A stretch of 64,000 bases of DNA from contig NC_083279.1 in the NCBI RefSeq assembly GCF_963506605.1, forward strand, positions 76,198,001 through 76,262,000, read 5' to 3'. Source of the stretch: Zootoca vivipara (taxonomy: Eukaryota). Shown one piece after another: positions 32,760 to 36,633 of this stretch. The position numbers and the translations under genes were made by a program. Position 1 is the first letter of the stretch. Each line of letters opens with the position of its first letter. Below the pieces are notes generated by a model. It worked only from the letters and a program-made list of their open reading frames with translations. It made no database searches and was not told where the DNA came from.

Positions 32760-34027
32760 GGCAGAGATGGTGATGATGGGGAAACAGTCTGAATTCCTCC
32801 TACTGATTCCTGTAATGTGTAACAGGCGAGTACCATCAAAGCCCCTGCTGATATTCATTCTAGGGGAAGAAACGATTAAAATGTTGTTTGTCTGTGATGC
32901 AGCTTGTGCATGAGTTGGGGTGTGTGCTAATGTTTTTGGCCCTCCAGTCCTTGCTCAGTTCAAGTACGGACCCTGTTGAAAAGTAGTTGCCAACCAGAAA
33001 TAAGGAACAATCTTAGCATAAGAAGCAGTGAACCCTCCAGTGTTTAGCTCCCGTCTAGAATTTTACATTTTCTGACCTAGGAAGTGAAAGCAGTATTTTA
33101 GATGGGAATGCTTTTCAAAGTGCCTTAGCTCAAGCAATCTCTTGAATTTGACATTTTCTGACAACTGGGAGTTAGGTTACATTACCTGCACATGACAACA
33201 TTTATTTCACTGTACACAATTTGAGGGTGTGTGTTTTGCTAACAACAAAACCCGAGAACACATATGCAGGGGCAAATATCTAAACTGACTAAGCTGCTTT
33301 TTCAGACTTTAAGAAAAAAGGAGTTGGTTACTTTTCAGTCCAGTTATGCAGTTAAGTAGTAAAGAATGACAGAAGGTGAGATCATGGAGGCAATTACGTT
33401 GCCCAATCTTTAGCCTTAGGGTGGAGTTAATAAGCAATCTGTCCCTATGGAGAGTTTTAAAATCACAATAAAGAAGGGGGGGGGAATCCTATGAATTAAA
33501 TTTAATTGTTCAACTGATTTTTTCCTTCCACATCTTGAAATTATAAAATTAAGCACATAAGGTTGGGCTAATGTTTTCAAATACTGCCCAGATGGATGTT
33601 TAAATATTTAACTTCGTGCTGCTCTGACGCCATATAAAAGTTATACACATGAATCACATTCTCAAAGAACCAGTCAACAGGTTATACAGTGGCAAACATG
33701 AGATTTCCACTGTTTATACATACAGCCAGTAGCTATGCTAAACACTCTTCTGTTTCACGAAGTGCTAGACAGATCTAGTCTGCTCCTCCCTTCACCCAGT
33801 GGCTAATGATACCAGCTCACCATGGCAAGTGATTTTGGAATTTATTTTCAATAGGTTCATAAACTGCTCAGAGGACTTTGTTATATAAGTGGAATATACT
33901 TATGATATATGCATAAACAAATGAGAGAAAAAAACCCTGAAGGGATGAAGGGGTCCCCTTGCTGAAACTAAATCAGTCCCCTTGTTCTTTTGTTAGACTC
34001 TGAAGTGTCTCCTAAATATGATTAACA

Positions 34028-36370
34028 CTAGCTGACCCGGCCACGCGTTGCTGTGGTTCTTTCCTGTGATCCCCCCCACCCTGTCCCGATCCATGACGTA
34101 TCCTGCCCCTCCTCCCTCCACCCCGGCTCATCCCTGTGTTTCGGTAGGATACCCTTCCCTCTGTTGTCCCTGGGGAGTGTTGGCCCCTCCCCCCTGTATC
34201 TCCATACCTTGGCCCCCACCCTTCAAAAAGGAACTGTCAGCTTCTAGGTTCTATTTCCCAGCATGCACTTTTGTCTGAGCCTTCTGTCGTCCCTGGGGAG
34301 TGTTGGACCCTACCCCTGTTATCTTCCTACATTGGCCCCCACCCTTGGAGAAGGAAATGTCAGTTTCTGGGTTCCATTTCCCATTTGTCTGAGCCCTCTG
34401 TTGTCCCCTCCCCGCTGTATCTCCATACATTGGCCCCTGCGCACGCATCGTGAACATTTCTATATATTTAGATTAAGGATCGGGGGTGATGATGCGCCCT
34501 GGGACGCAGAGAACTACTTAAAAAATCCCGATGTGGGGTTGTCAAATAGCAAAGCCCCACAGCCCCGTAGCAACAGACAGGCCCAGACAGAAAGAGGGGG
34601 GTCATATGGGCCACTTGGCGCGGGCCTCCGAATCTAAAGGGGGCCTCGGTCAGCATATTCACAATCAGTAAAATGAAAAAAGTAACAAAAGGGTTAAAAA
34701 CAGGGACACATTATCTACCTGGCACAGGCCTCTGTCTGGCCCTGCAAGGGCCTGGCAACAGAAGGCGCGTTCTGAAGCAGCCGAGTTGTTCAGTTCCATA
34801 AAAAACCCAGGAAGTGGCAAGGGGAAGGTAGGGGATTTTAAATGGGGTGGGGGATGGCCACTGCAAATATCTGAGGACTTAAACTGGAGAGAGAAAGTGC
34901 ATGGTTGTTGTTTTTAAAAAAAAGACACAGAGGGTTGCAATCAGTTGTAGTATATACCCTGTTTCTCCTAAAATAAGACATACCCATAAAATAAGCCATA
35001 GCAGGATTTCTAAGTATTTGCGCAATATAAGCCATACCCCAAAAATAAGACATAGTGATAGGCGCAGTTCTGGAGGGCCCCAAGGAAGAGGCAAGGCTGG
35101 ACACGTAATAAAAAAATAAGACATCCCCTGAAAATAAGCCACTGTGGGGGTTTTGTAAGGAAAAATAAATATAAGACGACGGTGTCTTATTTTCGGAGAA
35201 ACACAGTAAAGCCTAGTTTAAAAGGGACACGACTACCCTTACTTAAAATGGCCGCCGGAGCCTCGCATGTGACACAACGCCCACTAAATTATAAAGCAAA
35301 AACCCCTTGCTGTGCCCCCAAGTGCGTGTTAGGAGAAATGATGAACGACTACCTAATGCTGCCAGGCGTTTATTAATGCAGCCGCCGGGAGAGGCTTTGG
35401 GCTTGGGCTTTGGGGGTGGAATGGCTGTTTTGGTGGTTGTTGGACAGTTGCTCCCCCCCACCCTACGTCAGCCCATGACCTATTTGGGCTCCTCCTCCCC
35501 CCACCTCCCATCCAGGGCTCCATTTGGGATAGTATTTAAAGGGCTGTAGAGCTGAGGCCTAGTCTGTAAAATGGAGCCAAGGCCTAGTCTTTAGGCTGTA
35601 AAGTAGAGGCGAGGCCTTGGCTTGGGCTAGTATTTAAATATGACCCGAGGCCTCCGCCCTGTATCTCCATTTCTTGGCTCTGTTGTCTGGTAATAGGCCC
35701 CCTTCAGATCCCCCTTAGCCTCAGCGTCCCCGTTTGACAGGATCTCGTGGCGGAGGTGGGGTTTGTGGGTGTGGCGCGTTGTTGTGGCTAATCCCGGTGA
35801 CTGCCCCGTGTCCCGATCCATGATCTATTCTGTTTGTCGTCGTCCCCTCTCCGTGACCGGTGTATCTCATGACGTTTTGAAGGATGGTATTTATTTTTGT
35901 CTTGTGGTTATTTGGTAGGGGATTTAGGGGAGGTAGTGGTGCTAAATTGTAAAGTAAAAAAGTAAAAACCCCTTGCCGTGCCCCCAAGTGTGTTGCTGTG
36001 GGTTATCTCCCCCCCCCGAGCCTAGTGGGGGCCTGGCAGGGGTCTATATAAAACAAAGGCCTAGGGGTCTGATAATGGCCGCCTTGGTGGTTTCAGTTGC
36101 TTGGTTGATGATGTCATTTGGTTTGTGGGTGTGGCTTAGATTTCACAGGAGGGGGGGGAGGGTATAACGCCACTTGAGGGCCCTGTTTGACTTGGTGGAA
36201 AATCAGGTTTCTACCTGCCCAGATGCGAAATTTGAGGGGTTTTTTGTCCCCAACAACCCTCGGGAAGTGGCCTGGATTGTTGTGTCAAAATTTCAGGACG
36301 ATCGGTCAAGCGGTTACGGAGAAAAGTGTGGCCGACACTTTCAAGATTTTTACATTTTTTTATATAGAGA
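34028..36370 (-). mobile_element. Composite non-autonomous Helitron
   Basis: Minus-strand 3' end CCACAGCAACGCGTGG hairpin, 9 nt, then CTAG|T; 5' ends TCTCTATATAAAAAATG (about 36370) and A|TCTAAATATATAGAAATG (34472); no TSD. Confidence 0.85.
34957..35206. mobile_element. Tc1/mariner (Tc2/pogo-like) MITE nested in the Helitron
   Basis: TIRs CCCTGTTTCTCCTAAAATAAGACA / TGTCTTATTTTCGGAGAAACACAG; TA on both flanks; internal AAAATAAG repeats. Confidence 0.88.
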
Positions 36371-36514
36371 GAGCACTATTGTTTGCCTATGAAGCAAAAT
36401 CTTACGTAGAAACATTAGACTAGCCAGGTAGATCAGGTGAATGGCCTATCTAATCCACCCACCTTGTTCTCACAATGGCCAACAAGATGTCTGTGGAAAG
36501 CCTGCAAGATGGAT

Positions 36515-36633
36515 CATAGAATTGGAAGGACACTGAGGATCATCTAGTCCAACCCCCTGCAATGTGCCATACAGGGATCAAACCTGCAACCTTGGCATTA
36601 TCAGTGCCACACTCTAACCAACTGAGCAACCCA
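36515..36633 (-). mobile_element. SINE with tRNA-Ile-like head and CR1-type tail
   Basis: Minus strand gctcagttggttagagtgtggcactgataatgccaaggttgcaggtttgatccc...ttgcagggggttggactagatg...ttctatg. Confidence 0.7.

What the first reader, a model, noticed from the sequence alone, without database searches (positions are those of the whole stretch)
34028..36370. Composite Helitron that appears to record end-bypass (read-through) transposition
Seen, reading the minus strand: a 5' end at about 36370; a broken 3' end at 35775-35823 that keeps cgcgttg.tgtgg and the exact 15-mer tgtcccgatccatga (also at 34082-34096) but lacks one hairpin arm and CTAG; a middle unit sharing blocks with the first (35284-35324 vs 35942-35990; gtttgtgggtgtggc at 35761 and 36121); a second canonical A|TC 5' end at 34472; and the only intact hairpin plus CTAG|T at 34056-34028. 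Established: Helitrons have TC...hairpin-CTRR ends, no TSD, and can grow by bypassing a weak terminator. Inference: two or three diverged units were fused and moved together.
Basis: partly seen in the sequence, partly recalled or inferred. Interest (0 to 1): 0.7.

Follow-up and report, generated by a model that had tools for sequence, protein, structure and literature searches.

The report
Helitron stitched from two sister families
This is a real, many-copy rolling-circle transposon (Helitron) of about 2.3 kb whose front matches one sister family and whose back matches another, likely joined at a short shared sequence that cut out the first family's stop signal rather than by reading through it; such multi-ended Helitrons are already known.

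Summary
A 2.34-kb non-coding Helitron lies on the minus strand (about 36368-34028). Ten other loci match it over at least 2.09 kb at 86-90%. Four of four related organisms have the empty site. The read-through story is only partly supported. Both parents survive: family U (homologous to 36370-35689, then its own intact terminator; 10 loci) and family sf4 (the element without 36070-35689). They meet in a 6-nt exact microhomology at 35694-35689, not at the broken end at 35775, which U already carries. So U's terminator is deleted, not left in place, and no read-through intermediate was found among 198 ends with CTAG or a variant. The inner 5' end at 34472 is real: 3 free copies were seen, none among 30 position-ordered hits of the commoner pattern. 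Old, broken RepHel copies share the terminus. Helitrons with several termini are well described in maize and bats. The scan had one note on another Helitron of this genome, none on this one. Ordinary kind, unusually well-resolved history.

The parts
34028..36368 (-). Whole non-autonomous Helitron (subfamily called sf1 here), about 2,341 bp, no ORF of 100 aa on its strand
   Evidence: empty orthologous site
36350..36368 (-). Outer 5' end TC(TA)nAAAATGT; first base probably 36368 (36370 fits copy alignments equally)
35689..36368 (-). 5' arm homologous to free family U (81-89% in pieces); U's last ~50 nt with its terminator are absent
35990..36009 (-).
35775..35836 (-). Relic 3' end 2: 83-85% like the terminus of sister family T2, cut after the hairpin loop; inherited from U
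35689..35694 (-). Seam between U arm and sf4 arm: exact shared ATTACC within GGCC(T)ATTACC
34028..35694 (-). 3' arm homologous to family sf4 (L025, L072, L079), plus the nested elements below
35284..35327 (-). Second copy of the block at 35952-35993; each parent brought one copy
34957..35206 (.). Nested 250-bp TIR element with TA duplication (Tc1/mariner type by TSD); absent in sf4, 3-nt footprints in L023 and L050
34578..34754 (.). Nested 177-bp TIR element CAGGCCC...GGGCCTG with 8-bp duplication TCTGTTGC (hAT type by TSD); absent in sf2; same ends free in four relatives
34028..34472 (-). 3' module starting at an inner A|TC 5' end; holds three partial ~100-120-bp tandem units; rarely found free
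34028..34056 (-). Working terminator: short hairpin 34056-34041 and CTAG 34031-34028, then T

Best explanation
A many-copy non-autonomous Helitron whose front matches free family U and whose back matches family sf4, likely formed by a join at a 6-nt shared sequence that removed U's terminator, so that copying would run on to the single terminator at 34028. Shown: both parents, the seam, the missing terminator, the two nested TIR elements, movement as one unit. Inferred: a RepHel protein supplied in trans nicked the outer TC and copied to the first working hairpin-CTAG; the join likely arose by template switching between sister Helitrons during copying (my leading route) or by a deletion across a head-to-tail pair. 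The relic ends are older events of the same kind inside U. The inner TC is likely the 5' end of an older Helitron that landed inside an ancestor; it needs no bypass, since copying from the outer 5' end would simply stop at that element's terminator. It is occasionally still used, giving rare free 3' modules.
For: Free U with intact end and unrelated flanks at 10 loci (nine printed, 705-1285 bp). sf4 joins CCATTACC directly to the sequence of 35688 onward; the same short form is seen as a joint in organism B (35682 to 36067). Of the first 100 listed of 113 exact seam matches, 33 are composite-type and 67 U-type (counted by hand). 5'-arm tree (48 rows, two loci duplicated, L109 dropped): sf4 is one clade (100/99) and the window copy lies with U-derived forms (100/97), not with sf4. 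Other joins with microhomology exist in the family (L068, L271, L027-type). Of 198 ends with CTAG or a variant, none is followed by an sf4 body, and shared downstream DNA is mostly a target repeat (11 loci). Free 3' modules group with the composites that carry them.
Against: The final sequence cannot tell a direct join from read-through followed by deletion. U is not one clade in the 5'-arm tree and 5' tips are themselves mosaic, so the parent assignment rests on 300 bp. Only 40 candidates are scored per DNA search and at most 30 loci fetched, so rare intermediates could be missed. Head-to-tail neighbours, the substrate for bypass, do occur (L023, L084, L175, and L094 with a spacer). The 3'-module tree is mostly unresolved (1 starred branch of 34). 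No intact RepHel with these ends was found, so the trans-acting partner is inferred.
Confidence: 0.65

Rival explanations
1. End-bypass first, deletion later: copying skipped U's weak terminator, ran into an adjacent sf4 copy, and an internal deletion then removed U's end and sf4's start.
For: Bypass is demonstrated for Helraiser: about 11.7% capture with an intact end, at least 36% without the hairpin (PMC4778049, passages). Terminators here are short hairpins. Four of 198 ends abut or nearly abut another Helitron's 5' end. One pair in a sister family, L173/L174, shares an end plus about 200 nt beyond it.
Against: No undeleted U+sf4 form among 10 U ends or 198 ends. No relic keeps its 3' hairpin arm or CTAG in place, unlike maize pseudo-ends, which keep the hairpin. 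The seam is not at a terminus.
Confidence: 0.2
2. An sf4 element received a 382-bp U segment (36070-35689) by insertion or conversion between the two ATTA(T/C)CAGAC copies, with 5' tips exchanged separately; or the relic ends come from Helitrons nested in Helitrons as proposed for maize.
For: The extra segment is bounded by a near-direct repeat. 5' tips differ within sf1 (L007-L009, L016). Nested origin of multiple termini is proposed in PMC3288121 (section 12).
Against: The 300 bp before the segment group with U-derived forms, not sf4. The segment has no 5' TC end or intact 3' end of its own.
Confidence: 0.12
3. Separate adjacent insertions at this locus only, or an assembly artefact.
For: None found.
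Against: Ten other loci carry the same arrangement with other flanks; the orthologous site is empty in one step in 4 of 4 relatives.
Confidence: 0.01

Closest known systems
Maize helA Helitrons with multiple termini (Dong et al. 2011, PMC3288121; passages and section 12 read)
   Same: Non-autonomous Helitron with inner pseudo-3' ends lacking CTAG and extra 5' ends; 28.7% of helA are like this; insertion near or in other Helitrons.
   Different: Maize pseudo-ends keep the whole hairpin and change CTAG (model ends in CTAT). Here the relics are cut in or just after the loop and lose the arm and CTAG, and both parents of the main seam are extant.
Bat Helitrons with de novo 3' ends and compound HelibatN539 (PMC4778049 and PMC4224331; passages read)
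   Same: [quoted passage not shown]
   Different: HelibatN539 carries the captured host DNA between two progenitors; here no host donor was identified and the upstream parent's end is deleted.
Heli1Xen1 (Li and Pollet 2025, PMC12001565; passages read)
   Same: Canonical Helitron1 reported in lacertid lizards. The young intact RepHel element found here (8 open 1658-aa frames; three compared copies 99.97% alike over 6.58 kb) has a CCCGTT...AACGGG hairpin like the one the paper gives.
   Different: The window's family has other ends (no match to those copies) and is older (copies 86-95% alike); it is not this family.

Membership tests
Canonical Helitron (Helitron1), non-autonomous | 5' TC end | tested here: met
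   Copies begin TC(TA)n at one boundary with unrelated flanks.
Canonical Helitron (Helitron1), non-autonomous | 3' CTRR end | tested here: met
   CTAG at 34031-34028; 168 of 203 two-arm sites in fetched loci were scored CTAG, 30 more a variant.
Canonical Helitron (Helitron1), non-autonomous | Short hairpin about 10-12 nt before the end | tested here: met
   Stem conserved, with a compensatory change (second pair C-G in 159, G-C in 8 of 171 ends); weak by energy in this copy (z -0.36).
Canonical Helitron (Helitron1), non-autonomous | Insertion between A and T without target duplication | tested here: met
   T follows in 122 of 124 flanks; A precedes in 44 of 69 5' contexts (20 unparsed, 5 other). 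Paralogous empty sites in a target repeat show A|T with no duplication. This copy has C before TC.
Canonical Helitron (Helitron1), non-autonomous | Ends shared with a RepHel-coding element | tested here: met
   Two broken RepHel loci end, on the coding strand, in termini 87% like the window's over 32-39 nt. Their 5' ends were not found; no intact partner found.
Canonical Helitron (Helitron1), non-autonomous | Mobility: dispersed copies and empty site | tested here: met
End-bypass (read-through) product | Old 3' end left in place, intact or point-mutated | tested here: not met
   Relics lose the 3' arm and CTAG; U's end is deleted at the seam. A possible decayed tail after relic 1 scored only 24-25 of 38.
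End-bypass (read-through) product | DNA after the old end traceable to a donor flank | tested here: inconclusive
   It matches the interiors of sister Helitrons; a host donor could not be searched for among hundreds of copies.
End-bypass (read-through) product | Free upstream unit ending at the bypassed end | tested here: not met
   0 of 30, 0 of 30, 0 matches for a unit ending at 35775.
Heli1Xen1 | Family termini (CCCGTTA...TAACGGG hairpin) | tested here: not met
Tc1/mariner-type MITE (35206-34957) | TIRs, TA duplication, empty sites | tested here: met
   the superfamily name is recalled from the TSD rule, no autonomous partner was sought.
hAT-type MITE (34754-34578) | TIRs, 8-bp duplication, empty sites | tested here: met
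   the superfamily name is recalled from the TSD rule.

The most novel reading that the evidence does not exclude
The Helitron terminator hairpin is itself a hot spot for template switching: copying stalls at the loop and resumes inside a sister Helitron, so families grow by swapping modules rather than by capturing flanks. A target preference that mimics the element's own 5' end (T, five bases, ATA) would place Helitrons head to tail and feed this. Four separate relic classes break within 0-2 nt after the loop motif and none later (rough p about 0.001, with the motif search biasing what is found), and a fifth breaks inside the loop.
Probability: 0.3. Interest if true: 0.55.

Novelty: new member of a known kind. 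Interest (0 to 1): 0.3.

Why it matters
Inner pseudo-ends are commonly read as records of end-bypass. Here both parents survive and show that the seam lies elsewhere and that the terminator was cut out, a caution for annotating Helitrons. The family offers many mapped joins for testing whether terminator hairpins promote template switching. No effect on the host was shown.

Tried and rejected
1) The 227-bp hits first looked like a free 3'-module family; one search showed that most share upstream DNA as a second composite (sf2), with L122 (= L158) clearly free. 2) Relic 1 as a whole decayed terminus with CTAG changed in place: only 24-25 of 38 matches against one real end, so only the first 20 nt are claimed. 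3) Host donor for the interior: contigs of four relatives gave no cover at 34470-34559, 34770-34859 or 35220-35340 at 80% likeness; a part without cover proves nothing, so no conclusion is drawn. 4) Three of four relatives show almost no cover over the Helitron parts while organism B shows deep cover; this hints at a lineage-limited spread but is lack of cover in contigs, not used as evidence. 5) The young intact RepHel element as partner: ends do not match. 6) In one search rows L226 and L236 were cut on the wrong side and were ignored. 7) The first tree attempt failed on BLAST gap settings and was rerun. 8) Literature: searches found no paper whose listing describes hairpin-loop template switching or a target mimicking the 5' end; a recalled structure paper that may discuss targets was not held, so this is no proof of novelty. 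An AT-rich 3' flank is already reported. 9) No earlier scan note matched the word search.

Full report
Observation. The window is part of a 1.44-Gb genome in 48 contigs. A search with 34000-36400 scored 40 of 6946 candidates and returned 10 other loci matching in one alignment of at least 2.09 kb at 86-90%. Copies start at TC(TA)n and end at CAGCTAG with unrelated flanks. Among six such copies and the window, segments are 89.5-94.7% alike on average. In four of four related organisms laid on the site, contigs join 36370 to 34024-34027: the element arrived in one step. One undisplayed letter lies between 36370 and 34027, which puts the 5' end at about 36368 (inference).

It is a Helitron. T follows the end in 122 of 124 distinct flanks (6 flanks in one target repeat set aside), and A precedes the start in 44 of 69 contexts, 20 unparsed. 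Empty copies of the target repeat show the A|T site without duplication. The hairpin stem is conserved with one compensatory change (159 C-G, 8 G-C of 171), though weak in this copy. The genome holds 24 matches to PF14214. Eight are open 1658-aa frames of a young element with other ends, resembling Heli1Xen1 by its hairpin. Two broken RepHel loci end in termini 87% like the window's, which ties these ends to RepHel-coding Helitrons.

35206-34957 has inverted ends and a TA duplication; sf4 copies have the empty site and two loci show 3-nt footprints. 34754-34578 has CAGGCCC ends and an 8-bp duplication; sf2 lacks it exactly, and four relatives show free ends at 34578 and 34754. These are ordinary insertions into the Helitron.

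The broken end at 35775 is a real relic but not the seam. Its intact counterpart occurs 137 times; 3 of 30 inspected share the longer context (family T2, 83-85%), and 0 of 30 carry the window's upstream interior. None of the 30 best matches to the relic continues into arm and CTAG, and a gapped pattern for a free unit ending there found 0. A further relic at 36009-35990 matches the first 20 nt of another family's end (62 matches).

The real parents. Following the sequence beyond the relic showed family U: homologous to 36370-35689, relics included, then about 50 nt and an intact terminator, at 10 loci. Family sf4 lacks 36070-35689 and runs from CCATTACC straight into the window's 35688 onward; organism B shows the same short joint. 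U and sf4 share ATTACC exactly where the window switches. Of 113 exact matches to the seam, the first 100 listed are 33 composite and 67 U-type. In a tree of the 5' 300 bp the window copy groups with U-derived forms (100/97) and sf4 is a separate clade (100/99); U itself is not one clade.

The inner 5' end. It matches 252 sites exactly (243 + 9). Thirty position-ordered hits are all embedded (18 sf1-type, 10 sf2-type, 2 other internal joins); 3 of the 9 others are free elements with A|TC and CTAG|T. Its first 35 nt are 83-86% like the true 5' end of another sister family. Free modules group with the composites that carry them and are no more diverged (one supported branch), so they are likely offshoots started at the inner TC rather than surviving ancestors; two separate captures of free modules remain possible, since sf1 and sf2 differ just upstream of the TC.

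Mechanism. Shown: parents, seam, deleted terminator, nested elements, dispersal. Inferred: trans-mobilisation by an old RepHel, and a join at microhomology, most likely by template switching during copying, otherwise by deletion across a head-to-tail pair. Such pairs exist (4 of 198 ends), helped perhaps by a target with ATA at +7 to +9 in 58 of 124 flanks against 2% of AT sites in the window. Bypass followed by deletion gives the same product and keeps 0.2. Several relic classes break at the hairpin loop and resume in Helitron interior, whereas three other seams, including this element's, break upstream of the hairpin; this is the basis and the limit of the novel case.

Comparison. Multi-ended Helitrons are common in maize (PMC3288121, passages and section 12), chimeras are described in bats (PMC4224331, passages), and bypass is shown for Helraiser (PMC4778049, passages and section 10). 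PMC5148889 and PMC2997563 were seen as passages only; no supplements were read, and they may hold family sequences that match this one. An earlier scan note on another Helitron in this genome led me to PMC12001565 and names the host as the common lizard, which I did not check. Verdict: a new member of a known kind; interest 0.3.

Noticed in passing
L190-L197; L207:4957 to L208:1538: Young autonomous Helitron, 6.58 kb, eight open 1658-aa RepHel frames; three compared copies 99.97% identical; hairpin like Heli1Xen1. Possibly recently active.
   Followed up: partly
L016, L048, L077, L109, L139, L141, L145, L154, L172, L203, L234: Eleven Helitron ends from several families abut the same T site of one common short repeat (GATGCA|TTTTAAATAAAA; recalled as a hAT-type MITE): a target hot spot.
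   Followed up: partly
3' flanks of 124 ends: Target pattern T-N5-ATA, like positions 1 and 7-9 of the young element's 5' end.
   Followed up: partly
L173:1285-1923 and L174:1299-1863: Two loci 48 kb apart share a Helitron body, its end and about 200 nt beyond: candidate true 3' transduction, or a local duplication.
   Followed up: partly
L023, L084, L175, L094: Head-to-tail Helitron neighbours of different subfamilies.
   Followed up: partly
L023 and L050 at the site of window 35207: TA + 3 nt + TA, as expected if the Tc-type MITE was excised from inside the Helitron.
   Followed up: yes
window 35284-35220: CpG-rich stretch with GGCGGCCATTTT (recalled as YY1-like); may be an old captured promoter piece; no donor found.
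   Followed up: partly
window about 36460-36630: Very high-copy repeat in all four relatives, with a tRNA-like stretch; probably a SINE (recalled).
   Followed up: no
L211:8282 to L212:897: Broken RepHel Helitron about 155 kb beyond the window on the same contig, ending in this family's terminus type.
   Followed up: partly
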